Below, one piece after another: positions 11,798-63,844 of a stretch of 64,000 nucleotides of DNA. Origin of the DNA: Chiloscyllium plagiosum (taxonomy: Eukaryota); the NCBI RefSeq assembly GCF_004010195.1, contig NC_057755.1:4866316-4930315 (forward strand). The letters run 5' to 3'. A program made the translations under genes and the position numbers. The notes under the pieces are model-generated. The model worked only from the letters and a program-made list of their open reading frames with translations, ran no database searches and was not told the origin of the DNA. Every line of letters begins with the position of its first letter. The first letter of the stretch is position 1.

Positions 11798-11867
11798 ATG
11801 AAATATTCAGCAATCTTACAAATAGCAAGAATCTACTACCCGATACTTGCAACTATTGGAATTATTG
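11798..11867 (+). CDS. GPR139/GPR142-like orphan GPCR copy A, coding exon 1 (MKYSAILQIARIYYPILATIGII)
   Basis: ATG at 11798, 70 nt, phase-1 donor G|GTAAGT at 11868; paralogous to 35392-35461; supplies the N-terminus and start of TM1 that the exon-2 ORF lacks. Confidence 0.82.
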
Positions 11868-12289
11868 GTAAGTGATCAAATCCACTAATATTTGTGTTCA
11901 ACATGTTTAACTCTACTCTCCATTCTTTTATGAAATTTGACACACTTTCCCCACTTTTGCTGACTTCCAAGTTACGCATTCCTCATGATTTCACCAATAG
12001 TGTTGATCTCCATGTGCTGAAGCTGTTTTATTTAAGAACGTTTCACAGAATAATTAGTGCAATACTGAGGAGGCTGAGTCACCATTTAATCCCCATTACC
12101 GAATTACACTTGAGAAGATGGTGGTGAGGGGCCTCCTCAAACAAGTGAAGACCAGTTGTTGGAAGAGCACCCACATTGAGTCATGCAGCACAGAAACTGA
12201 TCCTGACGTCCACACTTGCCCGCCTATGGCCCACGTCCTGCTAAAGAGTTCCTCTTCAAGGAACTGTTCAGATATCTTTCAATTTATCC

Positions 12290-12875
12290 ATAAAACTGAA
12301 GGAAGGGCCATGTCTTTCCGTGATAGGAAAGGGTGAGTGGCTTGAAACGAAGTTGCTAGTGTTGCCATTCCCATACATCTGCTGCTTCGAGACAGTTGTG
12401 GTTGTGAGGTTCAGAGGGGGCTGCCCGAGGAGCCTTGGTCAGCTTCTGCAATTCATCTTGCAGATGGCACCCACTGCTTTCACTGAACGATAGTGGCGGG
12501 TCAGACTGAAGCTTTCTGGATATGGATGACAATCAAGCGGGCTGATATTTCCTGGAAAAAAAAGGCAGATGCAGGGTATCTTCACTAAACAAAGGAAATG
12601 TTAGATAAACCCGAAAGAGTTGGCGGTTTCTGTGTAGAGTTAGGAGGTGAGTCTTTGGCTGCGGAATTCCTAGCCTCAGACATACTGTTATGGAAACAAT
12701 CCTGATGTGGCTAATCCAGCGCAATGTTGGATCAATGGCAATCCTCAGGATGTTGATAATGGTGTTTCACGTGATGGTAGTGTCTCTGAATATCAAAGGG
12801 GGATGGTTAGAACCTTTTTTGTTGGAGATAGTAATTGCCTGACACTTGGGTGGATCAAATGTTAATTGTTACTTT
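12290..12875 (-). mobile_element. Decayed LINE fragment (CR1/L2-group)
   Basis: Similar to 18900-19330, 53475-53910 and (inverted) 62400-62886. Confidence 0.45.
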
Positions 12876-12879
12876 TACA

Positions 12880-13400
12880 GAGATCATGAGACTATGAAGT
12901 AGAGGAGTAAAGCTAACCCATTTGGCCCAACGAATCCTCTAGTCCAATCGATCATGGCTGAAGGGTTTCTGAACCCCATTCTTATGCCTCATCTCTGCCA
13001 CCTTTGATTCCCTTACTCATCAAGAAATGATCGCTGTCTTAAATGCACACAGTGACGGGCCCCGCAGCCTTTCTATGACAATGAGTTCCACACTTTCTGG
13101 CTGAAGACATTCTCACATCTCAGCTCTTCAAAGTTTCCCTTCCCCCTAACACTGTGTCCTCGGATTCGAGTCTCCCCTCCGAGAAACATCTTCTCCACGT
13201 CCTCTCTATCCGTGTCTCGGTGTTCTGTGGGTTTCAGACTTCCCCTCATTCATCCAAACTCCACCGAGTACAGATATATTGTCCTCAACTCCTCCTGAAA
13301 TAACAAATTATTCTTCTCCAGGATCATTTTTGTGAAATTCCTCTGAAACTCCTTTAAGACCAAGACATCCTTCCTTAGACTACATGTTCCAAAATTACTC
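12880..13400 (-). mobile_element. Decayed CR1 3' end
   Basis: Minus translation LRKDVLVLKEFQRNFTKMI...LYSVEF; CR1-type 3' UTR. Confidence 0.6.
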
Positions 13401-14194
13401 ATGATGCCTTGAGTGAGTTGTAAATGTCGCCTAATGAGAATATGAAAATAATGAGTACATGGAACTTTCACTTTTATTGTGTATATGAGCTCGTTACCTT
13501 TTCCCATAGTTCACTATGATTTCACTGTTTTGTGATTATTGCAATAATTTTCCAGTGATTGTTACTTATGAAATATATTCCCCAATTGCTGGTGATTACA
13601 TGGTCCTGAATTCAAGCTTATGTATGACTGATTGTTTTCAAAGGCCAGTTATTGGAGGAAGATGTAATATTACATCCAACCTTATCAAACACATCAATGC
13701 AAAATAACCTCAATTTAGAACCATCAGGTTAGTCCCACCATGTTCGCCTCATATAATTATTGATGCCACTGTATTTGTCCGTTATGAGCTTGAATAAATA
13801 TTTCCTCAGTATGATGCCTGTGATTAATTAATATGTACTACGATAATCTGACTGTTACAATTTAATCTGGTTGAGTTGCATTGCCTCCACAGTAAATTGC
13901 TAGCAACATTCAGCTCTCCTGTCTCGATGCTCTGAGTCCCAACCTGTGGACCACTACAAGTCCCACCTGCTTCACAGATGTGTCATGACATCTCTTAAGA
14001 GGTTGATTCGAAAAACATATGGTTGCGTTTAATTACCTGGTGTTGTCATTAAAGCCAAGTCAGATCATGTGTGGTTTTGCAGGACATGTTCAGATTTTTC
14101 TTCCAAACATAGTGTTGAGTTAAACCTGGTATTTTTTCCCGGAAGTGCACATCACGTTTATTTGTGTAATTTAATGTTGTAAAATTGTGAAACA

Positions 14195-15408: not shown

Positions 15409-15544
15409 AATGGATATTTTGCTCTACAGGTGGACCAACAAGATAACATATTTTGTGAGAATGATATTTGTTTTCCATTAATTCTGCCATTTCAGCACTT
15501 TCATACTCTCTGAATTTTCTTCCACAGAACAGTTCATATATAAT

Positions 15545-19985: not shown

Positions 19986-20890
19986 TTAACGTAGTGGCAA
20001 TTGTGATTCTGAATCGAGGCAGGTGTGGACTCTCTCGGTGCATCACTCGCTATTTGTTAGCAATGTCAACAGCAGATCTACTTCTCGTCATCCTTAATGT
20101 CTTACTGAACCGAATTAACAATCTTTATTTCCCAGTTACTTTCTTATCCATTACTTCAGTGTGCGCTGTGAGAGTTGTTCTATTCCTCGCAGCACTGGAC
20201 TGTTCAGTTTGGTTCACAGTTGCTTTCACATGTGATCGGTTTGTAGCAATTTGTTGCCAGAAACTCAGATCAAGATACTGCAATAAGAGAACTGCATTTG
20301 TGGTCATAATAACTGTGAGCGTGGTGAGCTGTTTGCGCTCAATTATTTGGTACTTTGTATTTATTCCTTCGTTTGTTATTGACAATATACCATGGTTTTG
20401 TATCGCAATACCAAGCTATTACACATCATTATTTTGGAAAGTGTATGAATGGGTTGACAGTATAATTACGCCGTTGCTTCCAATCGTACTCATTTTGATA
20501 TTCAATGCTCTGACTGTCAGACATATTATAATATCCAACCGGATCCGCTGTCGCCTTCAGATCCAGGGAAATAGACAGAATAATACTGACTCAGAGGTGG
20601 TAAACCGGAGAAAATCCATCATCTTGCTCTTTGCATTGTCTGCTAATTTTATAGCGTTGTGGATGACCTATGTCATACGTGCTCTAATATGGCAAGAAAC
20701 AAACTATAATTATGAAGACAAGACTTCAAACGACCCAATATTTACCTTTCAAGAAATTGGATTCATGCTCCGGCTTGTGAATTCGTGCACCAACACCTGT
20801 ATTTACGCTCTAACACAAACAAAATTCAGGAAGGAGTTAGTCAATGGCATAAAATACCCGTTTATTCGAAATGTTAAGCTATGCAAATAA
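19986..20890 (+). CDS. GPR139/GPR142-like orphan class A GPCR copy A, coding exon 2 (spliced protein 324 aa)
   Basis: Acceptor TTATTTTTCTTACAG| ending 19985; G+TT=Val then N1.50; TADLL (D2.50), TM3 Cys, DRF, PWFC, LPIVLILIFNALTVRHI, CTNTCIY, KFRKEL; uninterrupted frame with 7 hydrophobic segments. Confidence 0.9.
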
Positions 20891-25541: not shown

Positions 25542-27355
25542 ACCACCCCTATCCCAGTTGGTATTCTAACCATTCCCAGGTTGGTGCCCTACAAGCCTGG
25601 CACCATGACCACTTTGCCCTCTGCTAATCTGGGGTCCCATGTCATTTTACATCGTGAACTTAACTATTACAATATTGTCAAATCGCACTTTCTTCATGTG
25701 TTACAAGACAGCTCTCGCCAGGAATCACCAGTCAGCGTGGAAGTCAGGTTCCACGTTCCTGAGGGTAGCCTGAATGGAATCTCCACACAGAAATGCAGAG
25801 CTCCGTTCTTTCATCAGAAAGAAAAGGTCCAGAGTGGCAATCTGTGTGAGAATCCCACTCACTGGAAAACTTGACCCAGTATTTTATTGATTTTAAAGGC
25901 ATTAATGAAGGGAAAAGCTGCATCTCAGTATGACACAGAATACCTTTATTGCAAACGGGAACGCATTCTCCTGTCGATCATAAATTTAAAAAAAAACTCG
26001 TCTTTTAATTTTACTTCGTTTCCACTTTATACTAAGAAGGATTGTAATGTTTCTTTACTTTTCTATTCTGTACCTAAGGCTTTGTACCGACGTGACTTTA
26101 TGCATAACGTGACGCCGGGTGTGCTGATATTTTGAACTTTCACTGTAGCCATATACTCACGTACAGAAGGATATGAGAACACGTGACAGCAAAAACAAAT
26201 ATTAATTCGCCAGAAATTAGTGTCATTTCCTTCTTCAAAATACATTCTGTGGCGCCATAACACTCAGAGAAAAGGAGTCAATTTGCTGCTTGTTCAGATT
26301 ACTGCAACCTGCGCAATTCGTGAATACACCGATCCTGACTGGGTCGGTTGAGGTTAAATAAGTTGCCCTTCTTAGCATTTAAATTTAAGTTTTTCTCCTT
26401 TAACAATTTGATCCGCATGAAAAATCTCTAAAACATTTTGGTCAATCTGTCAGAATGACATACTTGCATTAACATATTTCATTCATTATAGCTTTTGTTC
26501 CTTATTTCTCTATTAACTCATTTACTCTGTCTATGGGTTCAAAGCATGTCGTTATTTGATTCTTTTTTGTTTGAGGCAATAATGCAGTTGCAATTTTTCA
26601 CGTGTACAGTGTAATTGAGTTGATATATTTATGTGAAGAAATTGATTTGATTTAACAGACTTATGAACATTTTCTTTTTGTTTGTGTTCTGGTCATGAAG
26701 AAACAAAAAAAAATATTTTTCTTACAGTTAACTTCGTGGTAATTGGGGACTCTCTACATGCACCACTCGCTAGTTGTTGACAAAGACTACAGCATAACTA
26801 TTTACCGTCACTTAATTTCGTACTGGACCGAATTAAGAATCTTTATTTCCCAGGTAATTTCTTATTCATCACTCCTGCGTGTGCCTTGAGCGTTGCTCTC
26901 CACCTTGCAACACTGGACTGTTCAGTTTGGTTCACAGTTGCTTTTACATTTGATCGGTTTGCAGCAATGTGTTGCCAAAAGCTAAGAGCAAGATATTGCA
27001 ATAAGAACATTGCATTTGTGGTCATAGTAATGTGAGTGTGGTGAGCTGTTTGCACTCAATTGCTTGGTATTTTGTGTTTACTCCTTCATTTGTTATTGAC
27101 AATGTGCCATTCTTTTGTGTCACAATATCAGACCATTGCACATCAGTATTTTGGAAAGTCTATGTGTGGATTGACTCCATCATTACGTCGTTACTTCCAA
27201 TCATATTGATTTTATATTGAATGCTCTGACTGTCAGGCATATTAAAAAAAGCCAACCCGCATCCACTGCCGTCTTCAGATCAATGGAAATAGGCAGAATA
27301 ATACTGATCCAAAGGTGGGAAATCGGAGAAAATCAACCATTTTGCTCTTTGCATT

Positions 27356-29253
27356 ATAGAACATAGAACATTACAGCTTCGGCCCTCGATGTTGCGTCGC
27401 CCTGTCATACTAATCTGAAGCCCATTCCCCCTACACTATTCCATGTGCATCCATACGGCTGTCCAATGATGACTTAAATGCACTTAAAATTGGCGAATAT
27501 ACTACCGTTGCAGGCAAAGCATTCCATACCCTTACTACTCTCTGAGTAAAGAAACTACCTCTGACATCTGTTTTATACCTATCACCCCTCAATTTAAAGT
27601 TGTGTCCCCTCGTGCTCGCCGTCGCCATACTTGGAAAAAGGCTCTCCCTGTCCACCCTATCTAATCCTCTGATTATCTTATATGTTTCTATGAAGTCACT
27701 TCTCAATCTTCTTCTCTCTAACGAGAACAGCCTCAAGGCCCTCAGCCTTTCCTCGTAAGACATTCCTTCCATATCAGGCAACATCTAGTAAATCTCCTCT
27801 GCATCCTTTCCAAAGCTTCCACATCCTTCTTATAATGCGGTGACAAGAACTGTACACAATACTCCAAGTGTGGCCATACCAGAGCTTTGTACAGCTGCAG
27901 CATAACCTCCTGGTTCCGGAACTCAATCCCTCTATTAATAAAGGCCAAAACACTGTATGCCTTCTTAACAACCCTGTCAATCNNNNNNNNNNNNNNNNNN
28001 NNNNNNNNNNNNNNNNNNNNNNNNNNNNNNNNNNNNNNNNNNNNNNNNNNNNNNNNNNNNNNNNNNNNNNNNNNNNNNNNNNNNNNNNNNNNNNNNNNNN
28101 NNNNNNNNNNNNNNACATAGAACATAGAACATAGAACATTACAACGCAGTACAGGCCCTTCGACCCTCGATGTTGCGCTGCCCTGTCATACTAATCTGAG
28201 GCCTATCCCACCTACACTATTCCATATACGTCCATATGCCTGTCCAATGACGACTTAAACGCACTTAAAGTTGGCGAATCCAATACCCATGCAGGCAAAG
28301 CATTCCATACCCTTACTACTCTCTGAGTAAAGAAACTACCTCTGGCATCTGTCTTATACCTATCACCCCTCAATTTAAAGTTGTGTCCCCTCGTGCTCGC
28401 CGTCACCAGACTTGGAAAAAGGCTCTCCCTGTCCACCCTATCTAAACCTCTGATTATCTTATATGTCTCTATGAAGTCACTTCTCAATCTTCTTCTCTCT
28501 AACGAGAACAGCCTCAAGGCCCTCAGCCTTTCCTCGTAAGACATTCCTTCCATATCAGGCAACATCCTAGTAAATCTCCTCTGCATCCTTTCCAAAGCTT
28601 CCACATCCTTCTTATAATGCGGTGACAAGAACTGTACACAATACTCCAAGTGTGGCCATACCAGAGCTTTGTACAGCTGCAGCATAACCTCCTGGTTCCG
28701 GAACTCAATCCCTCTATTAATAAAGGCCAAAACACTGTATGCCTTCTTAACAACCCTGTCAATCACGGTGGCAACTTTCAGGGATCTGTGTACATGGACA
28801 CCGAGATCTCTCTGCTCATATGCACTCCCAAGAATCTTACCATTAGCCCAGTACTTTGATTCCGATGACTCCATCCAAAGTGTATCACCTCACACTTGTC
28901 CACATTGAACTCCATTTGCCACCTCTCAGCCCAGCTCTGCATCCTATCTATGTCTCTCTGCAACCTACTACATCCTTCGTCACTATCCACAACTCCACCG
29001 ACCTTAGTGTCATCCGCAAAATAACTAACCCACCCTTCTAAGCCCTCATCCAGGTCATTTATAAAAATGACGAACAGCAGTGGACCCAAAAGCCAACCCT
29101 TGCGGTACGCCGCTAGTAACTGGACACCAAGATGAACATGTTCCATCAACTACAACCCTCTGTTGTCTTTCAGCAAGCCAATTACTGTTCCAAACTGCTA
29201 TGTTTCCCACAATCCCATTCCTCCGCATTTTGTATAATAGCCTACTGTGGGGA
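27356..29253 (-). mobile_element. Young CR1 LINE inserted in GPCR pseudogene B (3' end appears twice around an assembly gap)
   Basis: (ATAGAAC)n tail; YFADDTK and PHLEYCVQF motifs; flanking CATT duplication at 27352-27355 and 29254-29257. Confidence 0.9.
27983..28114. other. Assembly gap (N run)
   Basis: N characters. Confidence 1.
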
Positions 29254-29432
29254 CATTGTCTGACAATTTTAGACTGTTTTGGATTACATATGGCATACAC
29301 GCCTTAAACTGCAAAGAAATAAACTACAATTATGAGGACAAGACTTTTAATCATCCAATATTTGTCTTTCACAGAAGTTGGATTCGTGCTACGCCTTCTG
29401 ATTTCCTACACCACCACAAACAAAATTCAGAA

Positions 29433-30812
29433 AATACACAATATTCCAAGTGCGGCCGCAGCGGAGTTTTGGACAGGTGCAGCATGACCTCGTGGCTCCG
29501 AAACACAATCCCTCTACCAATAAAAGCTAATGCGCCATATGCCTTCCTGACAACACTATCAACCTTGGTGGCAACTTTTAGGGATCTATGTACATGGGCA
29601 CCAAGATGAGTCTGCTCACTTATGCTGACAAGAATCTTAACATTAACCCAATACTTTTTATTGCTGATGCTCCACCTAGAGTTAATAAACTCACACATTT
29701 CTGATTAAACACCTTTTTCCACCTCTCAGCTCAGCTCTGCAGCTTATCGATGTCCCTCTGTAACCTACCAACATCCTTCAGCACTATCCACAACTCCATC
29801 GACCTTAATGTCCTCCGCAAATTTACTAAATCATTCTTCTATGTCATCATCCAGTTCATTTCTGAAAATGACAAACAGCAGTGACGCCAAAACAGATCCC
29901 TGCGGTAAACCACGTGCAACTGAACTCCAGGATGAACGTTTCCCATCAACCATCACTGTCCGCCTTCTTTCAGCTAGCCAATTATTGATCCAAACCGTGA
30001 AATCACCCTCAATCCCGTCCCTCTGTATTTTCTGCAATAGCCTGCCATGTGGAACCTTTAGAAATGCCTTACTGAAATCCATTTACACCACATCAACCTC
30101 TTTACCCTCATCCACCTGATTGGTCACCTTCTCAAAGAACTCAATAAAGTCTGAGGCACGACGTACCCTTCACAATACTGTGTTGACGATCCCAAATTAA
30201 TTTATTCCCATCTAGATAATTATAAATCCTATTTCTTATACACTTCTCCAACACTTTGCACACAATCGAAGTAAGGCTCACTGACCTATAATGACCAGGG
30301 TTGTCTCTCCTCCCCTTCTTGAACGAGGAAACAGCATTTGCTAACCTCCAGTCTTCTGGCACTATTTCAGTCGACAATGACGACATAAAGATGAAAGCCA
30401 AAGGCTCTGCAGTCCCCTTCCTGTCTTACCAGAGAATACTTGGATAAATCCCATCCGGCCCAGGGGGCCTATCTATTTTCACACTTTGCAGAATTGCTAA
30501 CGCCTCCTCCTTGTGAACCTCAATCCCGTCGAGTCTAGTAGACGAGATCTCACTATTCTCCTCACAACAGTGTGTTTTTCCCAGTATGAATACTGAAGAA
30601 AAATATTCATTTAGCGCTTCCGCTATCTCCTTGGACTCCACACAACTTTCAACCACTGTCCTTGATTGGCCCTAATCTAACTCGACTCATTCTTTTATTC
30701 CTGATTTTTGCCTACAGAAAGCTTTAAGCTCCTATAAGCCAAAGTCTTCTCCTGTCCAATTCTGGCCTTTCTTTGCTCCCACTTTCGGTCTTTACTGGCT
30801 AACTTGTAACTG
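29433..30812 (-). mobile_element. CR1 LINE ORF2 fragment
   Basis: DFSKAFLKVPHGRLL, GLPQGSVLASLLF, PEDWRLANA, PGPDGIYP. Confidence 0.88.
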
Positions 30813-33160: not shown

Positions 33161-33169
33161 GTAACCATC

Positions 33170-35391: not shown

Positions 35392-35461
35392 ATGAAATAC
35401 TCAGTAATCTTACAGGTAGCACGAATTTACTACCCAATACTTGCAGCTGTTGGCATTGTTG
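35392..35461 (+). CDS. GPR139/GPR142-like orphan GPCR copy C, coding exon 1 (MKYSVILQVARIYYPILAAVGIV)
   Basis: ATG at 35392, 70 nt, phase-1 donor G|GTAAGT; same length as A exon 1 with only silent or conservative changes. Confidence 0.85.
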
Positions 35462-38341: not shown

Positions 38342-39297
38342 TTAACTCCATGGGAATTGTGATCCTGAATCGAGGCAATTGTGGGCTCTCCCCATGCATC
38401 ACTCGCTATTTGCTGGCAATGTCTACAGCAGATCTACTTCTCGTCATCCTTAATGTCTTACTCGATCGAATTAACATTCTTTATTTCCCGGTTAATTTCT
38501 TGTTCATCACTCCTCTCTGTGCCTCAAGAGTCGTTCTGTACCTTGCAGCCCTGGACTGCTCAGTTTGGTTCACAGTTGCTTTCACCTTTGATCGGTTTGT
38601 TGCAATTTGTTGCCAGAAGCTGAGAGCAAGATATTGTAATAAGAGATCTGCATTTGTGGTCATAATTACTGTGAGTGTGGTCAGCTGTTTGCGGTCAATT
38701 ACTTGGTATTTTGTGTTTACTCCTTTAATTGTTATTGACAATGTGCCGTGGTTTTGCATTGCAATATCAGACTATTTTACAGCATTATTTTGGAAAGTGT
38801 ATGTATGGATTGACAATATAATGATACCATTGCTTCCAATCGTATTGATTTTGGCATTCAATGCTCTGACTGTCAGACATATTATAATATCCAACCGCAT
38901 CCGCTGTCGCCTACAGCTCCAGGGAAATGGACAGACGAATACTGACCCAGAGATGGTAAACCAGAGAAAATCAATCATCTTGCTCATTGCATTGTCCGCA
39001 AATTTTACACTGTTGTGGATGACCCATGTCGTGCGCTCCTTTAACTGGCAAGAAATAAACTATAATTATGAAGACACGACTTTTGATCATCCAGTATTTG
39101 TCTTTCAAGAAATTGGATTCATGCTCCAGCTTCTGAGTTCCTGCACCAACACCTGCATTTATGCTTTAATGCAAACAAAATTCAGAGAGGAGCTAATCAA
39201 TGGAGTAAAATATCCATTTAATCGAATGGTTAAAATATGCAAATTGGTCAAAAGTTCTGACCTTCGTTTGAGACAGATTTTTCATTCAGAAACATAA
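38342..39297 (+). CDS. GPR139/GPR142-like orphan class A GPCR copy C, coding exon 2 (spliced protein 341 aa)
   Basis: Acceptor TTTATTTTCTTACAG| ending 38341; open frame; TADLL, DRF, PWFC, FNALTVRHI, CTNTCIY, KFREEL. Confidence 0.9.
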
Positions 39298-45943: not shown

Positions 45944-46457
45944 ACTTTAGTGATAGAAAGGGATAGGTGTATACCACTGGGCAAGAGTTACAGCTGGGGG
46001 AAAGGCAATTATGATGCGATTAGGCAAGATTTAGGAAGTTCAAAATTTGAGAGAAGACTTGTAGCTCGGGTGCTCATTGTTGTGGTTCTGTTCGCCGAGC
46101 AAGGAATTTGTGTTGCAGACGTTTCATCCCCTGTCTAGGTGACATCCTCAGTGCTTGGGAGCCTCCTGTGAAGCGCTTCTGTGCTGTTTCCTCCGGCATT
46201 TATAGGGATGGAAACAGCACAGAAGCGCTTCACAGGAGGCTCCCAAGCACTGAGGATGTCACCTAGACAGGGGATGAAACGTCTGCAACACAAATTCCTT
46301 GCTCGGCGAACAGAACCACAACAATGAGCACCCGAGCTACAAGTCTTCTCTCAAATTTTGAACTTCCTAAATCTTGCCTAATCGCATCATAATTGCCTTT
46401 CCCCCAGCTGTAACTCTTGCCCAGTGGTATACACCTATCCCTTTCTATCACTAAAGT
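45944..46457. repeat. Perfect inverted repeat (248-bp arms, 18-bp spacer) centred on a Penelope-type terminal-repeat pair
   Basis: 45944-46191 is the reverse complement of 46210-46457; identical ORF peptides reported on both strands. Confidence 0.92.
46247..46286 (+). ncRNA. Minimal type I hammerhead ribozyme motif (Penelope-associated); mirror copy at 46115-46154 on minus
   Basis: gca-CTGAGGA-t-gtcacc-tagaca-ggggat-GAAACGTC-tgc: intact CUGANGA and GAAA cores, stem I gca/tgc, palindromic ACGU in place of stem III, GUC cleavage triplet. Confidence 0.7.
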
Positions 46458-48369
46458 GAACATAACAGAATTGTGATCGCTAACTTCAAAGTGCTCACCT
46501 ACTTTCAAGTCAACCCAGTACCAAATATAATGTGGCTTCGCCCCTTGTTGGTCTGTCTACATACTGTGCCAGGAAGCCCTCCTGCGCACATTCGACAAAA
46601 ACTGATCCATCTTTAGTACTCGTCGTATAGTGTTCCCAGTCAATATTTGGAAAGTTGAAGTCCCCCATGACAACTACCCTGTCTCTCTCACTCCTATGGA
46701 GAATCATCTTTGCTATTCTTTCCTCTACATCTCTGAAACTATTCGGAGACCCATAGAAAACTCCCAACAGGGTCACCTCTCCTTTCCTGTTTCTAACTTC
46801 ATGCCATACTAGCTCAGTGGATGAGTCCCCAAACATCCTTTCTGCAACTGTTATACTGTCCTTGACCAACAATGCCACACCTTCCCATCGTTTACCATCT
46901 TCTCTGTTCTTATTGAAACATCTAAATCCTGGAACTTGCAACATCCATTCCTGTCCCTGCTCTAACCATGTCTCCGAAATGGCCACAACATCGAAGTCCC
47001 AGGTGCCAATCCATGCTGCAAGTTCACCTACCTAATTCCGGATGCTCCTGGCATTGAAGTAGACGCACTTCAAAACAACGTTTTGCTTAATGGTGCCATC
47101 TTGCATCCCTGAAACTTGATTTTGGACCTCCCTACTCTCAACCTTTTCTCTCCTCGAAATACAATTTTGGTTCCCATCCCCCTGCTGGATTAGTTGAAAC
47201 CCACCCCAATAGCCTTAGCGAATTTCCTCCCCCCACCCCCCCCCCCCCCCCCCCAGGATATTGGTCCCCCTCTGATTCAGATGAAGACCATCCTTCTTGT
47301 AGAGGTCCTACCTACCCCAGAAAGAGCCCCAATTATCCAAGAATCCAAAACCCTCCCTCCTGCATGATCCCTGTAGCCACGTGTTCAACTCCTCTCTCCC
47401 CGTATTCCTTGCCTCACTAGCACGTGGCACGGGCAACAAACCAGAGACAACAACTTTGTTCGTCGTAGCTCTAAGCTTCCATCTTAGCTCCCTGAATTTC
47501 TGCCTGACATCCCCATCTCTTTTCCTACCTATGTCATTGGTGCTTATGTGGACCACGACCTGGGGCTACTCCCCCTCCCCCTTAAGGATCCCAAAAACAC
47601 GATCAGAGACATAACGAACCCTGGCACCTGGGAGGCAACACACCAAACGTGAGTCTCTCTCATCCCCACAGAACCTCCTATCTGGCCCCCTAACTATGGA
47701 GACCCCAGTGACTACTGCTCTGCTCCTCTTCTGTAACTCCTCTCAATAACCCCCTCTGCCTCCCGAATGATCCGAAGTTCATCCAGCTCCAGCTCCAGTT
47801 CCCTAACGCGGTTTTCGAGGAGATGGAGTTGGGTGCATTTCCCGCAAATGTAGTCAGCAGGGACACTAGTGGTGACCCTTACCTTCCATATTCTGCAGGA
47901 GGAACGTTCAACTGTCCTAACCTCCATTCCCACTATTCTAAATTCCCAAAGAGACTGTTAAAAAAAAGGAATAAAAATTAACTCGTTACCTTACCAATTT
48001 GGTGCAGAGGTACTTTTCTTTTGGTTAGAGGAAGATGACGGGTGGGAGACATTACCCGAGTAGTGTTTCGGGTAACGCAACCAAACAAATATATGACTTC
48101 CCAGAAGTCCTTCGCTCCTCCCTCATACCTCTCGGCAAATGGAGGCCCGACTCGCGAGGTAAGTCCGTTTTAATGCGGGTATACTCGCCCTTCCCGGCAG
48201 CCCTCGCTTCACCTCTCCTTCTTTCCTCGCCGCTCTGGCAATAGTGAGATGAACTACTTGATATGGACTCCAGAAATGAAAAGCCTCACAGAGTGTGTTC
48301 ATGTGAATATGTTCAAAAAGTACTTTGACAGAGAAGGAAAACAGGAAAAGGTATTAAAGATGAAGTTGA

Positions 48370-49614: not shown

Positions 49615-52360
49615 CTCACAGAACACAGAAAATTACAGCAGAGTTACAGGCCTCTCTGCCCTCGATGTTGCGCCGATCTGTGGAACCAACCTGAAACCCA
49701 ACTGTCCTACCCTATTACATTCTCATCCATATGCCTATTCAATGACCATTTAAATGCCCGTAAAGTTGGCGAGTCCACTACTGTTGCAAGGCAGTGCGTT
49801 TCACGCCCCCACTACTCTCTGTGTAAAGAAACTATCTCTGACATCTCTCCAGTATCTATCTCCCATCAGTATAAAGCCGTGTTCCATAGTGCGAGCCGAG
49901 GAAAAAGCCTCTCACAGTCTACCCTATCTAACCCTCTGATATTCTTATATGTCAATTAAGTCACCTCTCAGCATTCTTCTCTCTAACAAAAACAGCCGCC
50001 AGCTTCTCAATATTTCCTCATAATACCTTCCCTCCATAGCAGGCAATATTTTCGGAAAACTCCTCTGAACCCTTTCAAAAGTTTCCATAACCTTTCGATA
50101 TTGTGGTGACCAGAAATGTACGCAATACTCCAAGTGCAGCCGCACCAGAGTTTTGCACGGCTGCAGCATGACCTCGTGGTTCCAAAACTCAATCCCTCTC
50201 CCAATAAAAGCTAAAACACCGCATGGTTTCTTAACAGCCATACCAATCTGGCCAGCAACTTTCAGGGATCTTTATACATGGTTACCGAGATCTTTCTGCC
50301 CATCTATACTGCCAAGAATCTTACCTTTAGCACAATACTCTGGATGGATTTTTGCTCCTTCCAAAGAGAATCACCTCACACTTTTCTGCATTAAACTCCA
50401 TTTGCCACCTCTCAGCCCAGTTATGCAGCTTATCTATGTCCCTCTGTAACCTGCAACATCCTTCAGTACTGTCCACAACTCTAGCGACCTTATATGTTCC
50501 GCAAATTTACTAACCCATCCTTCTATGACCTCATCGAGGTCATTTATAAAAATGACAAACAGCAGTGACCACAGAACTGATTCGTAATTGAACTCCAGGA
50601 TGAACATTTCCCATCAACCACCACCCTCCGTCTTCCTTTAGCTGGTCAATTTCTGATCCAACCCGATAAATCACCCTCAATCTCATGCCTCTGTATTTTG
50701 TGCAATAGCCTGACAAAGGGAACCTTGGCAAAAGCTATATTGAAATCCATATTCACCACATCAACTGTTTTAACGCCATCCCCTGTTTGGTCATCATCTC
50801 AAAGGGCTGAATAAGGTTTGTGAGGCATGGCATAGTATTCACAAAACCATATTTTTCTACAGTTTACACACAACAGAAGTAAAGCTCCATGGTCTATAAT
50901 TACCAGGGTTGTCTCTCACAAGGGGATAGCATTTGCTATCTTTCAATCTTCCCCTACTCTTATGTAGACAATGATGACATAAAAAATGAAAGCTAAAAGC
51001 TATGAAATCTGACCCCCGCCCACCAGCTTCCCAGAGAATCTTAAGTGAAATTATATCTGACCCAGAGGAATTATTTATTTTCACACATTCCAGAATTGCT
51101 AGCACCTCCTCCTTATGAACCTCATTCGCATCTCGTCTAGTAGCCTGTATCTCAGCACTCTCCTCAACAACATTGCCCTTTAATTTAGTGTTTCTCTTAT
51201 CTTCTCTGATTCTACGTACGACATCCCACTACTCTCCTTGGTGGGACCCAAATCTTTCCGTAGTCATTATTTTATTCCTGATATACCTGTCGAAAGTTTT
51301 AGGGTTTTTCTTGATCCAATCTGCCAACGCCTTCTCATTTCTCCTCCTGTCTCTTAGCTCTCTTTTTCAGTATTTACTTGCTAAATTTAAACTCTCTAGC
51401 ACTCTAACTGAGCTTTCACGTCTCATCCTAACTTAAGCCTTCTTCTTCATCTTGACCACTTCATCCCTGCCTGACAGGTATATAATTATCAAAGGACACG
51501 AAGTTGCTGTTCCTTGACTAAGCCCAACATTTCAACTGTGCCCATCCGGTGCATTTCCTTCCCCATCCCCTGCATCACAAATCTTGCCTAGTCCCAACAT
51601 AATTTCCTTCCTCCAGCAATAACCCAGAAATACCTCGTCCTTTCCATCACTAATGTAAACATAACCGAATTGTGATCATAATAACCTCACACCAAATCGA
51701 ACCAGATTCTTCACTGGGTATCAAATTTGACCTCACTCTTGTTAGCTTGTCTAAACCATCCTGCACAGTTTGGACAAAAACTGACTCAACCAAAGTACTT
51801 GAGCTGTAGCATTTCCAGTCAATATTTGAAAAGTACAAGTCCCCTATCGCAACTACCCCGGTACTTTCGTTCCAATCCAGAATTATCATTGCTACCCTTT
51901 CCAACACATCTCTGGATCTATTCGGAGGTGAATAGAATACTCCCAAAAATGTGAACTCATCTTTCCTGTCTCTAACCTCAGCACATACTAGCTCAGTAGA
52001 CGAGTCCTCAAACATCTTTTCTGCCACTGCAACACTGTCCTTGACTGACAATGCCACACCTCTGCCTCTTTTACCATCTTCTCTGCTCTTACTGAAATGT
52101 CTAAATCTCGGAACCTGCAAAACCATTCATGTCTCTTCTCTAACCATGTCTCTGAAATGTCCACAACATCAAAGTCCCAGGTATTAACCCGTGCTACAAG
52201 TTCACCCAGCTCATTCGGGATGGTTCAGGTGCTGAAATAGACACCCTCCAGCCATCTTCCTGCTTGCCAGCGAACTTTTGCGACATTAAAATCTCATTTC
52301 TAACCTCATTACTCTCAACGTCCTGGGGACTGGAACTACAGTCTAGGTTCCCACCCCCCT
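49615..52360 (-). mobile_element. Older CR1 LINE, ORF2 (APE to 3' end), decayed
   Basis: GVFYSPPN, AIGDLYFSNIDW, LHLEYCVHFWSP; colinear with 43833-47200. Confidence 0.88.
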
Positions 52361-53474
52361 GACTCTTTCAAGGTGATCATCCACCTTCTACTCTAAACTG
52401 TCAGAAGTCACTCTGTTTTGATCTTCTTTTCACCAGTAGTCCAAAACGATGCAACTGCATCTAAAGCAGTGATTACTGCTCCTGGAATTCAAGAAAATCA
52501 CCCCACAAGAAATCAACTACTTCAAAAAAGGAGCAGTTTTTTCAGACACAATTTTTTTCGTTATCCATCTTGGGTTACCAAGAATCCTTTCAGCCTAGGG
52601 CCTGAGCTGACTCATCACAACCAATGTATTGAAAACGTGCAAAAATAAAGGAGTACTTGGTGATGGCTTTCTGACCTCTGTGCAAAAACAAAACCCTGGA
52701 GATTGTATCCGCAGACTGCCTGCCCTTTTTCCACATTTATGCTCAACCACCGGTGTCCTTGAAGATTGCACATGCCACGTTCTCTTGATGCCTGCAGAGA
52801 AAAATGACCACCACCGGGGTGGGGGTGTGGTTGTGGTGGAATGCTCGATTGTCCTCTCCAACTCCATCCTGACCTTCCGTTTTCACAATTTTTTTTTCTC
52901 AATTTGGCTTTGCACTTCCAGGACTTTGCTTTTTAATGTTTCACCCCCCCCCCCCCTCCCACCCAAATAGATTTTTATTTTCTGTGTTGGAAATACACAA
53001 TAATAGTCTTGATCAATGCTGACTGATGTACTGAGTCAATGGAAAAACAGAAACGCGGTTGCACGGGCGAAGCGGGGTAATGTAAATGCTACAGCTTTAA
53101 GGTAGCAGTTTAGGTTGTAAATTTAAAAAAAAGAAAAGAGAAAGTAAAAAAAAAGACAGGAGATTCTCCTTCCTCGAGTTTCTGACATTGAACCAGCTAG
53201 TCAGAGCCCATGTAGTATTCACGTGTAAATGAAAGGAAACGAGGCACCAGAATACTGTTCTCTGTGCAGTTATTTCAGGGTTAAAAATGTATTGCGTTTT
53301 AGAATTGATTAGAAATCTGATCTGGAATGAAAGAGAACGGTCACTTGTGTATTGACAGACTGAGTGTGTCAGTTGCCACAAGGGAGGAACCAAAATCCAC
53401 AACTATTTTAATTGGTTTGATGAGTACAAATTATCAGGTCAGCTTATTTCCTTTGTGCAATGATGCAGGCTTTG

Positions 53475-57261: not shown

Positions 57262-57820
57262 ATGTTTAAAAGATTTTACACTCTTCCCAAACTGGTAATG
57301 AATAAAAAATCAAAATGCTAAGAGGAACAAGTTATTTTACATTAATAAACTCAATTAGCAACACAGTACATGAGCAGTCACAACAATATAAATTTTGTGA
57401 AGGGCAATTGGCATAGTTGATTATGAGGTTTAGGTAGTTTGAATGTGGTCACATGGTTTCTTACTTATGCTGGTCACAAAACTGAAGTGGCAGTTGGTCA
57501 GGGACGCTGCAATCAGATTGGGAAACGCAGGAGCAGATGAAAATCATGTTTAAAAGATTTTACACTCTTCCCAAACTGGTAATGAATAAAAAATCAAAAT
57601 GCTAAGAGGAACAAGTTATTTTACATTAATAAACTCAATTAGCAGAGCAGTCACAACAATATAAATTTTGTGAAGGGCAATTGGCATGGTTGATTATGAG
57701 GTTTAGGTAGTTTGAATGTAGTCACATGGTTTCTTACTTATGCTGGTCACAAAACTGAAGTGGCAGTTGGTCAGGGACGCTGCAACCAGATTGGGAAACG
57801 CAGGAGCAGATGAAAATCAT
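57262..57820. repeat. Tandem duplication, two copies of about 280 bp, in the intron of copy D
   Basis: ATGTTTAAAAGATTTTACAC...GATGAAAATCAT starting at 57262 and 57546; the second copy lacks 11 bp and has a few substitutions. Confidence 0.92.
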
Positions 57821-58252: not shown

Positions 58253-58676
58253 TATGTCAATTACATTGATGCCAACTGTAAGTTACAAGTGGGCTTGATC
58301 AATTACAGATGACAATTTCTTTTCCCCCAAAATGGCATTCGTATTCCAGAAGCGTTTTATGGCAATGGTTAAACGGCCACTATGAGACCAGTTGATACTG
58401 ACTTCACTCCAACAGTTCTTTATCTCCAGTCCTAGCATGTTCACTTCTTAAACTTGTGACTGCATTTCTTTTCTCATGTGTCCACTTCCCTCTATATCCA
58501 GAATAGTGGCTTGCCATTAAAGAGAGAGAGAGATGGGGGGAGGGAGGCTATGGTATTCTATCCTAAATTCCTTGGGCATAAGCACTTCTCAGTCCAATTC
58601 GATACAAAGAAGATGTCTAAATTTCACGTGTTCATAAAATGTGGAACTTGTCTCTGGCTTGGCTTAGTACTCCTTT

Positions 58677-59080
58677 TTATTTACGAAAAAATATCAATAA
58701 TGTGAGTGAGTATTTCAACATGCTTTTGAACTGGTCTCTGAACTTGGACTGTGTCACAGTATAATTAATTGTGTTTGTGCAACAATTTAATTCAGTCAGC
58801 ATAAGCGCAATTTGCAGGAAGATATTTCCAGAACCAGTATAATAGTTGAGATTTTTTCCTGCAATGTTCTCGTAGTTGACGAATGGAATAATTACTAACG
58901 ACAAAAGCATAAACTGCAGGATACAGAGAAAAGTATACTCATGAACCTCCTTCTCGCCATTTCTGGGTTATTTTGATGCTCACCTATGCTCTGATCCTTC
59001 AGTCCCTTGTGGACATGACTAGCCACTAAAATATGTCTGATTATTAGCGCGTTGAACAACAGAATGAAAACAAAAAAACT
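58677..59080 (-). pseudogene. GPR139-like GPCR pseudogene fragment E (TM5 to C-terminus)
   Basis: ILLFNALIIRHILVAS...NPEMARRR; frameshift; LNCCTNTINYTVTQSKFRDQF. Confidence 0.8.
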
Positions 59081-59496
59081 TAGTGTTTCAGGCCAACTCT
59101 CAGAGTTAAAGTCGGAGGCAGCATAGTTGCAGAGCTTTGGATTTATACGCCGTGGAATTGCGAAGGGCCCAGAATGGTTACAACATCGCAAATTCCAACT
59201 TCATGTTCAAAATTAACAACTAGATTGCAACGTCCAATTAAACCCAGTATATGGCAGAAAATATTGTATTCTGTGCTTGCAACGGATGCTGAAAATAATA
59301 GACTTATAGATTCACAGAGTGAGATCATGTATGTCATAGTCAATTATTTTCTGATTAACTGTTCTAGTTAATGTCCATAAACTCCTGCGAAGGATTTATT
59401 TTGATGGAGACGTATAGAGGGTTGCAAGCTAATAGCAATTACCGAGTAATTCTTTTTCTTGGTCAATTCCTTGGGATTATGCTACAATGGGGAATC

Positions 59497-60056
59497 CACA
59501 GGTTACAGCATAAATAAATATATTTCTGCAAAAACATAACATCTGCTGCATAAAACCAATAACAGTGAAGTGGTTCAGGATTGATTACATGAATAACGTA
59601 ACAGAAGAAATGTATAACAGTGATTAACCAGAGGAGGATGACCCTCCCAAGTATAGTGAAGAGCAAAAATCACATACCTCCTTCTGCTCTCCATGTCTGT
59701 GTCTCTGGGATTATCTTCTTTATTTTCATCCTTCAGCTTCGTCCGAACTCGATTTGTCACTAAAACATGTCTGTCAGAGCATTGACCAACAGAATTAAAG
59801 CGAACGCTGGTGAAGAGGTTAAAACCGGATCAGGCCAACCTATTGCCACACACCAAGTCGTAGTAAATCAGCTTGATTTTACTTCACAGTGGAATGGCAC
59901 ATTGTTCATGATCACCCGAGTTTCCTATTCAAAGTAGAAGGGGATGTTTTTCAGGAAGAGTGCAGTGCAGGTTGTTGATAGAACCACAGTCGTAGTTTTG
60001 TCAGTGTAACAATTTGTTCTCAGCTTCTGACAAATGGTCACAAATCGGTCAAAGGA
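59497..60056 (-). pseudogene. GPR139-like GPCR pseudogene fragment F (TM3 to TM7), close to copy G
   Basis: FDRFVTI.CQKLRT, LKNIPFYFE*, RDTDMESRRR, HFTVIGFM...IFIYAVT; stops and frameshifts; 5' part lost at a repeat insertion. Confidence 0.82.
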
Positions 60057-60186
60057 GGAGAAAGTGAGGACAGCAGATGCTGGAGAGCCAGAGTGGAAAA
60101 GGGTGGCGCTGGAAAAGCACAGCAGGTCAGGCAGTGTCCCAGGGCCAGCAGAGTCGAATTTCGACTACAACCACTGCATCAGGAAT
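60057..60186 (-). mobile_element. Penelope-type terminal repeat (same family as 31617-31746) at the 5' break of pseudogene F
   Basis: GGAGAAAGTGAGGACAGCAGATGCTGGAG...GCATCAGGAAT. Confidence 0.6.
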
Positions 60187-60537: not shown

Positions 60538-60679
60538 AAATGGAAGTAAATGGAGGAGGCGGGGCTAGGGATAGGGTCGGTGGTAAGATTGGTGGATGCA
60601 GGTGCGGGGTAATTGTGAGAGATTTCTGGGGAGACTGGAGCAGATAGAACAGGTCAAGAGAGCAGTGCTGACTCAAAGA

Positions 60680-60975: not shown

Positions 60976-61119
60976 ATGGACCAATGCAATGCATTTAGAT
61001 TAGTTCATATAACGCATTAGTTATTTGATTTTTTACTGGGTATTCAACTACAGTAAACATCACTCCCACCTGTCATCCAGCGATATCATTACCGAGTATA
61101 AACTGTATTTACTGGAAAG

Positions 61120-61533
61120 TCTCAATAGGTTGTGTCTGTTTTTCCTGGAGCATTGGAGGAGAGGGGTGACCTTATAGAAGTTTATAAAAATCAAGAGATG
61201 CATGTTTAGGATGAACAGATAACGTCTTTGCTTTAGGTTTTGGCAGTCCAGAATTAGAGGTCTTCGGGTTAAGGTGAGAGTGGAAAGATTTAAAAGGGAT
61301 TTAAACTTTTTCACCCAATGGGTGATATGTGTGTGGAATAAGTTGCCAGAGGAAGTGGTGGAGTCTGGTACAATTGCAACATTTATATCTGGATGGGTAT
61401 ATGAATAGGAAGGGTTTAGAGGGATATTTGCCATATTCTGGCAAATGGGACTAGATTAAATTAAGATATCTGCTCAGCATGGATAAGTTGGTGTGAAGGG
61501 TCTGCTTTCGTGGTGTAAAACTCTACCACTCTG
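61120..61533 (+). mobile_element. CR1 3' end
   Basis: GDLIEVYK and VWNKLPEEVVE motifs; ACTCT-type tail. Confidence 0.8.
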
Positions 61534-62399
61534 TGCAATGCTGATGGAAGATGTCGTAAATCCAGTGAAGACAATACTTCCAGACTTGTGACAATTTCTG
61601 ACTGGATAGTACAACATTTCAACATGAAGGTATTGACGGGAACAGAGTTTGCTATGAATATCTAAGAGTTTGTGAGTAACGTTTCAGTCCACATCAGAGG
61701 GAGACCTATTTGTGCTTGTGTGTGTGTGTGTGTGTGCGTGTGTGTGTATATACACGTGTTTGTGGATGATGCTGTCAGTTTGGATGGTGCAGTGAGATTA
61801 TGAACTCCCTCTCCGCGTCACTGACTGAATCCATGAGGATTTTCACCTTGCATCACTCCCAACAGCACTAGTGAGGGGAGGCCATCAGAGGGTAGTCTTG
61901 TATCATTTTCAAAACATGAGAGGTTGGTTGCATCATTAGGACTCTGCACACATTGACAGGAAATGCCTGATGAGAATGCATTAGAGTAGCAGCCCATTGG
62001 ATTGGGAAGATTGATGCTGACAAATAGCAAGCCCAGCCATTTGTTAAGATTGGTCTTGTAATCACATAATCCAATTTTTCACGTCGAAGATGCTCATAGT
62101 AGCTGTTTGTGACATAAGTCTACACTCTGTTGAATTGTTACTGAGCAGTGAGACCAGATATTTAATCGTCAAACATTTTCTGATGAACGTTTCTATTTAA
62201 TTTCATCAAAACCCACCAAAGCATCTGATTTGTTGGAGACTTACAGAGGGTTCCAGGCTGACAGCCTTTATCCAGGAGTAAATTCCACTTCCCCAGACAA
62301 TTCCTTTGGAATGTGCTACAATGAGGAATTCGCAGGTCCCCAGTTCAACACTGACCCTGCACTGGTCCTGAGTACTCTATGTGAGGAGTGTGATAGAAT

Positions 62400-62886
62400 A
62401 TCCCCCATTTTCCCTTGTTGGGTCAAATCCAATAACACTCAAGAAGCTCTGCACCATCCAGGACAAAGCAGACCCTCTTGATTGATACCACAGCCACTAA
62501 CATCCCGTCCCTCTTCCAAGGATGCTCTGTAACAGCAGAATATACCATCTTCGTGGAATACTGTAAAACGTCACCAAAGACCCTGAGACATGACCTTGCG
62601 AGCCCACACCAATTCGATCTAGAAGGACAAGGGCAACAGATACAAGGGAACATCACTGCCTGCAACTTCCCCTGCAAATCTCTCACCATGCTGCCGTTTC
62701 TTCACTGTCGTTGGGTCAAGATTCAAAAATTCCCTCCCGCAGGGCGAGGAGAATCTATTTACAGCACATGGATTGCAGCAGTTCAAGATGACAGCTGACA
62801 ACTCCTTCATAGTGGCGTTATGTAGGCATGGGTATTGAATTTTGAGCGAAGCGGTGACGCACACATCCCGCAAGTGAGAATTAAAA
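62400..62886 (+). mobile_element. Decayed LINE 3' end (CR1/L2-group)
   Basis: LCTIQDKA..LI and TIFVEYCKTSPKTLR; ends in GAATTAAAAA. Confidence 0.55.
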
Positions 62887-62942
62887 ATGATATGTATCGT
62901 GTGGAAACCATAGATATCGACTGTGATCTTCACAAATGACTT

Positions 62943-63844
62943 TTATTTATTGAAAGCGCAAGAAAGTTTTTCAAACAGGTACTTTACTGCATTACATATC
63001 TCCGCTCTAAATCTAGACAACGTTGCTGCATAAATGAACGTGTTTGTGCAACAACTTAGGTTCTGCAGCATAAAACCAACAATACTGAAGTGGTACAGAA
63101 AAGGTGCGTAATCATCAGGGTGGATTTTTTGGATGGCATAATATAAGAAATCTATGACAACGATTAACCACAGGAGGATGAAGCTTCCAGAAATGGTGAA
63201 GAGCAAAATTACAGACTTCTTTCTGCTCTCCATCTCTGGGTCTCTGTGATTCTCACCTATACTCTCACCCTTCAGCCTCTTCCGGACTCGACTGGTCACT
63301 AAAATATGCCTGACTGTCAGAGCATTGAACAAAAGAATCAAAACAAATGGCAGTAAAGGGGTTAAAACCATATCAAGCCAATCTAATGCCACCCACCAAG
63401 TCTCAGTGAAGTAGCTTGATTTTGTATAACAGTAGAATGGCACATTGTTGATTATCATCATAGGTTCATATTCAAAGTAGAAAGGGATGTTTTTCAGACA
63501 GAGCAGGATGCAGGTTGTTGCTAAGACCACAGTAGCCGTTTTCTCAGTGCAATATTTTGTTCTCAGCTTCTGACAACAAATCGTCACAAATCGGTCAAAC
63601 GAGAAAGTGACCGTGAACCAGACAGAACAGTCTCTTGCTGCACGTATCAGGGCCCCAATAACACTGCAAACAGGAGTGATGGACAGGAAAGACTGAGGAT
63701 AATAATAAAAGCGAAAACTCGTCAGCAGAATATCAGTGATAATGACCATCAGATCGGCAGCTGCCATGACCACCAGATAGCGAGTTGTGCAAGGGGAAAC
63801 ATCACACTTTCCCCGGGAAAAGATGACAATTGCCAGCAAATTAA
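62943..63844 (-). CDS. GPR139/GPR142-like orphan class A GPCR copy G, coding exon 2 (exon 1 expected beyond 64000)
   Basis: Acceptor TTTGTCTTCCACAG|TT AAT at the same phase-1 position as A and C; open frame with AADLM, DRF, PFYC, FNALTVRHI, CTNTFIY, SRFR; divergent subfamily. Confidence 0.88.

What the first reader, a model, noticed from the sequence alone, without database searches (positions are those of the whole stretch)
11798..63844. Lineage-expanded GPR139-like orphan GPCR array evolving by birth and death: a candidate unrecognised receptor repertoire
Seen in sequence: at least seven copies in 52 kb. A, C and G have open frames; B, D, E and F are pseudogenes. There are at least two subfamilies (A/B/C/D and F/G, with E possibly a third). 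Every copy whose 5' part survives has the same phase-1 intron at the start of TM1. Established: mammalian GPR139 and GPR142 are single-copy, aromatic amino acid (Trp/Phe)-activated GPCRs, and sharks have small canonical OR repertoires. Inference: tandem arrays, a high pseudogene fraction and a very short N-terminus are typical of chemosensory or immune-type receptor families, so this may be a cartilaginous-fish ligand-sensing family whose function has not been described. Function cannot be read from this window.
Basis: partly seen in the sequence, partly recalled or inferred. Interest (0 to 1): 0.8.

Follow-up and report, generated by a model that had tools for sequence, protein, structure and literature searches.

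The report
Thousand-copy shark receptor gene family
These seven gene copies belong to a family of well over a thousand cell-surface receptor copies in this shark genome, distant cousins of GPR139 likely grown from one ancestral gene, which likely forms an overlooked set of chemical sensors in animals thought to have only a few dozen, though tissue and ligand are untested.

Summary
Confirmed. The window holds seven class A GPCR copies: three with open frames, four broken. They belong to a very large family: three separate motifs match 1,772, 1,092 and 1,472 places in this genome (controls 0), and relatives occur across sharks, rays and a chimaera. They are not GPR139. True GPR139 and GPR142 are single genes elsewhere, a tree rejects grouping with them, and five of six pocket residues are lost. 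The sister group is a gene found as about one cluster per species in amphibians, sturgeon and reedfish. Intact copies are under purifying selection (dN/dS 0.19-0.45). One young subfamily, not the window's own, shows strong positive selection at 15 extracellular codons and has poly(A) transcripts in a single-cell library of unstated tissue. Promoters share an O/E-like plus TATA-like footprint near -105, replicated in a held-out set. Best reading: a chemosensory repertoire (about 50%); main rival is immune or barrier sensing. No tissue, ligand or spliced read was shown, and none for the window's gene C. Ten literature searches found no description. This scan noted the family many times before on other DNA.

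The parts
11684..11712 (+). Promoter footprint of copy A: O/E-like decamer (11684-11693) followed 13 nt later by a TATA-like hexamer (11707-11712); function inferred
   Evidence: same layout in 9 of 14 and 5 of 13 other promoters
11798..11867 (+). Copy A exon 1 (23 codons + 1 nt, N-terminus and first half of TM1), GT donor at 11868
19986..20890 (+). Copy A exon 2, intact; spliced protein 324 aa, 7tm_1
   Evidence: model pLDDT 90.4
26728..29438 (+). Copy B pseudogene (exon 2 only; 2 stops, several frameshifts), split by a LINE fragment at 27357-29252
35392..35461 (+). Copy C exon 1
38342..39297 (+). Copy C exon 2, intact; spliced protein 341 aa
56052..56976 (-). Copy D pseudogene (1 stop, 3 frameshifts), inverted duplicate of the A/C type; no exon 1 found
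58671..59161 (-). Copy E, decayed 3' fragment of a third lineage
59502..60067 (-). Copy F pseudogene of the G type, 5' end lost at a repeat (2 stops, frameshifts)
62943..63844 (-). Copy G exon 2, intact (299 codons); candidate exon 1 lies 1.5 kb beyond the window end

Best explanation
The seven copies are members of a family of well over a thousand class A GPCR loci that multiplied in cartilaginous fishes, likely from one ancestral gene, and that likely serves as a chemosensory repertoire, predicted to sit in sensory neurons (nose first) and to bind varied waterborne ligands, likely peptide-sized. Shown: two-exon genes, still carrying their intron, were copied repeatedly, with many copies dying; the receptor core and G-protein side are conserved; pocket residues differ between subfamilies; one young subfamily changes fast at the mouth of the pocket; a promoter footprint is shared; poly(A) transcripts of that subfamily exist. 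Inferred: EBF-type factors read the footprint, each cell uses one or a few members, the ligands are peptides or amino-acid derivatives, and signalling runs through an ordinary G protein.
For: Size: TM3 motif 885+887, TM7 motif 544+548, exon-1-plus-donor motif 735+737 exact matches; each reversed-pattern control 0. Stop-free matches: 124 of 131 scored with A and 114 of 130 scored with L015. L015's nearest paralog among those scored is only 89% identical, so this gene has no haplotype-like duplicate there. Range: 1,983 clusters at E<=1e-10; 118 of the top 120 are named from sharks, rays, skates or Callorhinchus, 2 are unnamed. Origin: family is one clade (95/88), sister to an amphibian-plus-sturgeon clade (100/100), with about one cluster per species. 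Selection: pairwise dN/dS 0.30 (A/C, 14 genes), 0.19 (C37, 12), 0.45 (young subfamily, 10). In 36 young-subfamily genes, omega 9.25 on 5% of sites, LRT 657; all 15 sites lie in ECL1, ECL2 or the tops of TM5-TM7. Tree-free check: 0.39 non-consensus bases at these codons against 0.044 at fourfold sites. Promoter: composite in 9 of 14 (shuffles 0.36, max 3) and, with the definition fixed, 5 of 13 held-out (shuffles 0.28, max 2; control windows 0). O/E and homeodomain sites are implicated in olfactory receptor gene choice (PMC8213819 passages). RNA: 280 reads of run X5 on L015, most 82-95% alike (so from several paralogs or alleles), 17 with poly(A) tails at a site that is not A-rich in the genome. 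Precedent: nematode srw, a birth-and-death family from the FMRFamide-receptor neighbourhood, speculated to sense environmental peptides (PMC2576165 passages); the Atlas places a family protein near such clusters.
Against: No tissue is known: the tool does not state it for X5. The window's own A/C subfamily and the C37 subfamily show no positive selection (LRT 0). Strict O/E consensus, tested without the TATA anchor, was barely enriched (1 of 15 sequences). Only 4 of 14 elements have a homeodomain site within 30 nt upstream. The composite was defined after I saw the first set, promoters share ancestry, and 8 of 13 held-out promoters lack it. EBF factors also act in B cells and other neurons (recalled). 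In the catshark, the top 50 genes of brain plus olfactory epithelium held no GPCR, and its OR-like genes are expressed in spleen, stomach and ampullae (PMC11979771). Omega near 9 in a young burst fits a host-pathogen race as well or better (inference). Gene conversion could inflate the site test, and my codon model scaled rather than re-optimised branch lengths.
Confidence: 0.5

Rival explanations
1. The family is an immune or barrier sensor repertoire on granulocytes, mast-like cells or skin, gill and gut epithelium, detecting microbial or parasite peptides, like formyl-peptide receptors or MRGPRs.
For: Very strong diversifying selection in a young, star-like subfamily. Selected sites sit at the pocket mouth (about 6.58-6.62, 7.29-7.35, ECL2). 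The model has an ECL2 hairpin and ranks peptide receptors first. Sharks are reported to lack MAS1 and its relatives (PMC8455134 passages), so that role is vacant. EBF1 is a B-lineage factor (recalled).
Against: NF-kB, ISRE, STAT, ETS, C/EBP and RUNX consensus sites were not enriched in 15 proximal promoters (a crude test). The loose NF-kB signal most likely comes from the 42-bp N-terminal repeat.
Confidence: 0.27
2. The family serves another internal or somatosensory role: trigeminal or spinal sensory neurons, gut endocrine cells (as GPR142 does) or reproductive tissue.
For: GPR142 acts in pancreas and gut and GPR139 in brain (PMC7318219 passages). Shark chemoreceptor-family genes often appear in non-olfactory organs. 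The subfamilies differ in selection regime, so they may not share one job.
Against: An endogenous ligand would not need about a thousand diversified pockets (inference).
Confidence: 0.1
3. Copy number is mostly a by-product of repeat-driven segmental duplication, and only a few members matter.
For: 8 of 16 loci in 264 kb around the window are broken. Young copies travel with 65-bp and 40-bp satellites and long shared flanks. Seven first exons in 270 kb of C8 have no second exon.
Against: dN/dS is 0.03-0.14 in parts of the core among paralogs. At least 238 matches are stop-free. Diversification is targeted to the extracellular face. Transcripts of several members are polyadenylated.
Confidence: 0.1
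4. These are duplicated GPR139/GPR142 receptors for tryptophan and phenylalanine.
For: GPR139 is the best PDB sequence match (E 3e-5). The phase-1 acceptor lies at the same place in this genome's GPR139 and GPR142. Databases use that name.
Against: The orthologs exist separately as single loci. Identity is 25-29%. An AU test rejects one clade, p 4e-6. Only W6x48 of six pocket residues is kept.
Confidence: 0.03

Closest known systems
GPR139 and GPR142 (class A orphans activated by L-Trp and L-Phe; PDB 7VUG, 9M42)
   Same: 7tm_1 fold, nearest solved structure by sequence, phase-1 intron acceptor at the same TM1 position, W6x48
   Different: 25-29% identity; separate single-copy orthologs in this genome; E3x32, F3x33, H5x43, R6x51 and N7x38 not kept; the family has a TM3 cysteine that the shark GPR139 lacks; more than a thousand loci against one
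GPR210A, GPR210B and a third unnamed set near GPR139/142 (Rinne et al. 2019, PMC6504862)
   Same: Orphan paralogs near GPR139/142 in coelacanth, gar and fishes; L002 and L003 and the amphibian-sturgeon-reedfish gene are likely these or their kin
   Different: Described only as small sets; no cartilaginous fish among the genomes listed in the passages read; no expansion or function given; I did not map the Ensembl ids, so the match is unverified
Vertebrate OR, TAAR, V1R/ORA, V2R and T2R repertoires
   Same: Tandem and dispersed arrays, birth and death, many pseudogenes, variable pocket, O/E-like promoter element
   Different: Different origin (GPR139/FMRFamide-receptor neighbourhood); a coding intron in TM1; sensory expression and one-receptor-per-cell choice not shown
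Nematode srw family
   Same: Large birth-and-death family derived from the FMRFamide/myosuppressin-receptor neighbourhood, speculated to sense environmental peptides (PMC2576165)
   Different: Independent expansion in another phylum; 1 of the 120 listed homologs carries PF10324
Mammalian MRGPRs and formyl-peptide receptors (recalled)
   Same: Lineage-expanded, positively selected peptide-sensing class A receptors of sensory neurons and immune cells
   Different: No tested sequence kinship; far smaller families

Membership tests
Class A (rhodopsin-like) GPCR | 7tm_1 domain above the curated cut-off and a seven-helix fold | tested here: met
   54-75 bits against cut-off 30.5; model pLDDT 90.4; Foldseek hits are class A receptors
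Class A (rhodopsin-like) GPCR | Signalling motifs (DRY-like, W6.48, Y7.53) | tested here: met
   DR[FYL] in 76 of 78, W6x48 in 73 of 78; Y7.53 column 100% in 98 rows
GPR139/GPR142 | Orthology (one clade with GPR139 and GPR142) | tested here: not met
   Tree; AU p 4.2e-6; single true orthologs L001 and L027
GPR139/GPR142 | Trp/Phe pocket E3x32, F3x33, H5x43, W6x48, R6x51, N7x38 | tested here: not met
   Only W6x48 kept; residues from PMC7318219, mapped
GPR139/GPR142 | Coding intron in TM1 | tested here: met
   Acceptor at the same codon and phase in L001, L027, L002, L003 and 78 intact family exons; donors of GPR139/142 not fetched
GPR139/GPR142 | Activation by L-Trp or L-Phe | not testable with these tools
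   Needs a cell assay
GPR210-like orphans (Rinne 2019) | Groups with coelacanth, gar and fish orphans beside GPR139/142 | tested here: inconclusive
   Family nests with coelacanth, teleost and amphibian orphans (98/95, 98/94), but the paper's Ensembl ids were not matched
Vertebrate chemosensory receptor repertoire (functional class) | Large birth-and-death multigene family | tested here: met
Vertebrate chemosensory receptor repertoire (functional class) | Diversified ligand-facing surface over a conserved core | tested here: met
   Met in the young subfamily and between subfamilies; no positive selection within A/C or C37
Vertebrate chemosensory receptor repertoire (functional class) | O/E plus homeodomain promoter motifs | tested here: inconclusive
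   O/E-like plus TATA-like footprint replicated; homeodomain site next to only 4 of 14; binding factor unknown
Vertebrate chemosensory receptor repertoire (functional class) | Sparse expression in sensory cells | tested here: inconclusive
   Poly(A) transcripts at low level in run X5 of unstated tissue; none for C
Vertebrate chemosensory receptor repertoire (functional class) | Response to external chemicals | not testable with these tools
   Needs deorphanisation
OR / TAAR / V1R / T2R families (membership) | Sequence kinship with these families | tested here: not met
   Pfam gives only 7tm_1; no olfactory, taste or vomeronasal receptor appears in the PDB, Atlas or listed fold hits; these families were not put in the tree

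The most novel reading that the evidence does not exclude
Cartilaginous fishes have a further, unrecognised vertebrate chemoreceptor family of about a thousand working genes, built from a GPR139-related orphan and run by olfactory-type promoters. It would be their main sense-of-smell repertoire and would overturn the view that sharks smell with a few dozen V2Rs.
Probability: 0.38. Interest if true: 0.95.

Novelty: new variant of a known kind. Interest (0 to 1): 0.8.

Why it matters
Published surveys give the catshark 2 canonical ORs, 6 OR-like genes and about 32 V2Rs (PMC11979771) and speak of a paucity of GPCRs in cartilaginous fishes (PMC8455134). A family with well over a thousand loci, hidden under the automatic label 'probable GPR139', contradicts the second point for this genome. 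It also offers a direct test of how animals with large olfactory organs manage with so few known receptors. If the family is immune instead, it is a large germline-encoded sensor set in the oldest jawed-vertebrate lineage. The apparently single ortholog in Xenopus and axolotl gives an easy way in.

Tried and rejected
Haplotype duplication as the source of the count: not supported for L015, whose nearest scored paralog is 89% identical; not excluded for every locus. Retrotransposition or a mobile element carrying the gene: the 20 dispersed copies examined keep intron sequence, and shared flanks have no fixed ends, so DNA-level duplication is more likely. Fold search: it does not single out GPR139 (rank 12 among near-equal class A hits). 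Run search: no RNA holder listed for gene C, which is no evidence either way. Runs X6 and X8 laid no reads, so they are no test. X1's summed depth over the TM3 motif is no copy number and was not used. An NF-kB-like signal with a loose pattern was set aside as most likely from the 42-bp repeat. Literature: ten searches and passage look-ups in six shark genome papers found no description. Not seen, and could bear on novelty or tissue: the catshark supplement (unreadable), 12 of 24 whale shark supplements, and the supplementary table of tandem clusters of bioRxiv 2025.06.08.657570 (closed). Subscription journals were not searched. No complex prediction was run, because no partner is claimed.
Full report
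OBSERVATION. tblastn with the three long reading frames finds seven GPCR copies in the window. A and C are two-exon genes: a 70-nt exon 1, a phase-1 intron, and a 0.9-kb exon 2, giving 324 and 341 aa without internal stops. G has an intact exon 2, and a candidate exon 1 of 22 codons lies 1.5 kb beyond the window. B (2 stops, frameshifts, LINE insertion), D (1 stop, 3 frameshifts), E and F are broken. All three intact frames pass Pfam 7tm_1 and no other family. A and C are 79% identical, A and G 47%. In 264 kb centred on the window I count 16 loci: 7 with intact exon 2, 8 broken, 1 cut by a gap. The other open frames of 200 codons or more look like repeats.

SIZE. A protein search of the genome with A scored 131 of 8,306 candidates; all were at least 48% identical and 124 had no stop. 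Exact motif counts give 1,772 (TM3), 1,092 (TM7) and 1,472 (end of exon 1 with donor), each with 0 in the reversed control. The TM3 motif catches 8 of the 16 local loci and 47 of 68 intact exons not picked by it, so the total is probably 2,000-3,500 loci (my estimate). Of 20 motif-picked dispersed copies, 10 are intact, 5 broken and 5 cut by gaps. With 7 of 16 locally, this suggests on the order of a thousand intact exon 2s (estimate; the assembly is in 101,977 pieces). A second search, with L015, scored 130 loci: L015 itself and 129 others at 83-89% identity, 114 of the 130 stop-free.

RANGE AND ORIGIN. The homolog search returned 1,983 clusters at E<=1e-10 among 4,855 candidates. Of the 120 listed, 118 carry names from sharks, rays, skates or Callorhinchus, nearly all 'probable GPR139', and 2 are unnamed. 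The genome's real GPR139 (L001; E 7e-157 to the human chain) and its likely GPR142 (L027, 56%) are single loci. Two more apparently single relatives exist, L002 and L003. In an IQ-TREE of 39 rows (chosen from the 81), the family is one clade (95/88). It is sister to an amphibian and sturgeon clade (100/100), then to the L002 group (98/95) and the L003 group (98/94); amphioxus proteins and GPR139/142 lie outside. Forcing the family together with GPR139/142 is rejected (p 4e-6). The sister gene appears as 20 amphibian clusters, one sturgeon and one reedfish cluster; no teleost or amniote was listed, though these word-based searches miss distant relatives. Rinne et al. named GPR210A, GPR210B and a third set beside GPR139/142 in bony fishes (PMC6504862, passages); these are likely the same group, but I did not match identifiers. 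All lineages share the splice acceptor before the TM1 asparagine (82 of 87 long frames examined). Of six GPR139 pocket residues (PMC7318219, passages), the family keeps only W6x48; 3x32, 3x33, 5x43 and 6x51 differ between subfamilies.

SELECTION. Pairwise dN/dS is 0.30 for 14 A/C-type genes (extracellular half 0.41, rest 0.23), 0.19 for 12 C37 genes (0.18, 0.20), 0.45 for 10 young-subfamily genes (0.63, 0.27) and 0.25 for G and its neighbour. My own M1a/M2a fit finds no positive selection in A/C or C37. In 36 young-subfamily genes (39 candidates; 1 duplicate and 2 non-intact dropped) it finds omega 9.25 on 5% of sites. The 15 sites carry 4-12 different residues among 32 genes (the 4 most divergent left out) and lie in ECL1, around the ECL2 cysteine, and at about 6.58-6.62 and 7.29-7.35. 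Recombination was not modelled, but a tree-free count agrees (0.39 against 0.044; sites chosen after the fit). This subfamily also has a longer N-terminus, with a 42-bp repeat and a variable aromatic stretch. The model of A (pLDDT 90.4) has an ECL2 hairpin and resembles peptide receptors generally. A ligand at the pocket mouth, such as a peptide, is my inference.

EXPRESSION. On gene C, single-cell poly(A) run X5 (2% read) gave 51 partial reads, none at 95% or better. On L015 it gave 280 reads (1, 36, 149 and 94 in falling identity bands), a peak over the 3' end, and 17 reads with poly(A) tails at 5881-5883, behind AATAAA and ATTAAA in DNA that is not A-rich. So members of that subfamily are transcribed and polyadenylated at low level. 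The tissue is not stated, and no spliced joint was seen. X6 and X8 laid nothing.

PROMOTERS. The lead came from earlier notes of this scan. Exon 1 was found for 12 of 20 genes fetched; with A and G that gave 14 promoters. Nine have a decamer with at least 6 of 8 matches to the recalled O/E consensus at -102 to -114 from the ATG, followed 9-15 nt later by a TATA-like word (shuffles 0.36; control windows 1, 1, 0). With the rule fixed, 5 of 13 further promoters (13 of 20 fetched) have it at -99 to -113 (shuffles 0.28; controls 0). Unanchored motif counts were weak, and immune-type motifs were not enriched. O/E and homeodomain sites are tied to olfactory gene choice in mouse (PMC8213819, passages), but the factor here is unknown and shared ancestry may explain part of the signal.

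READING. Shown: a very large, old, two-exon class A family under birth and death, with a conserved core, variable pocket, a shared promoter footprint and some transcripts. Inferred: a sensor repertoire. I put sensory neurons, nose first, at 0.5; immune or barrier sensing at 0.27; other organs at 0.1; mostly by-product at 0.1; Trp/Phe receptors at 0.03. The subfamilies may differ, and the window's own genes show only purifying selection. It works like an OR, TAAR or srw repertoire, but I found no sign of membership in those families, and it fails the tests for GPR139/142.

NOVELTY. Ten searches found no description. I read passages of PMC10620051, PMC8455134, PMC11406177, PMC6504862, PMC7318219, PMC8213819, PMC2576165 and bioRxiv 2025.06.08.657570 and 2025.09.06.674125; passages and section 13 of PMC11979771; and the abstract of PMC6368271. 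Unseen supplements may list the family or its tissues. The genes are in public annotations under a misleading name. This scan has reported the family many times on other DNA (16 notes listed); those notes are not independent support. The kind of system is known; this family and its scale appear not to be.

Noticed in passing
G000:C8:2,636,601-2,760,500 and 2,802,601-2,949,200 (L174-L181, L234-L253): Seven first-exon cassettes of the long-N-terminus subfamily lie in 270 kb (14.6 kb N) with no second exon; 10 of 10 such cassettes had none within about 19.5 kb. Very long introns in a fragmented assembly are the plain explanation; orphan or mix-and-match first exons are not excluded.
   Followed up: partly
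L144-L173, exon 1: The young subfamily's N-terminus carries 2-6 copies of a 42-bp (14-residue) repeat and then a variable tryptophan- and tyrosine-rich stretch before TM1, a possible extra ligand contact.
   Followed up: partly
L008, L014, L015, L018-L025: A 65-bp and a 40-bp satellite sit in the intron and flanks of young-subfamily copies; a 65-bp remnant also lies 1.6 kb upstream of several first exons. They may promote duplication.
   Followed up: partly
L015:4554-5015: Run X5 has a second pile of reads of opposite orientation over the intron end and the start of exon 2: antisense transcription or internal priming.
   Followed up: no
L002 (G000:C26:36.6 Mb), L003 (G000:C98156): Two apparently single-copy GPR139-related orphans with coelacanth and teleost orthologs, likely the GPR210 genes, present in a shark.
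   Followed up: partly
window 27357-29252 and 29428-30726, 43831-47184, 49617-52361: LINE fragments on the minus strand; one interrupts copy B.
   Followed up: no
window 57262-57820: A 273-bp direct tandem duplication, 95% alike, in the intron remnant of copy D.
   Followed up: no
window 6580-9752, 10507-11032 and 40569-43832: Repeated blocks with long purine-rich frames, probably remnants of one transposable element family.
   Followed up: no
L144, L160, L165, L173, about 260-590 nt upstream of the TM1 motif: Some young-subfamily promoters hold a near match to the extended homeodomain site of mouse olfactory enhancers; most paralogs do not.
   Followed up: partly
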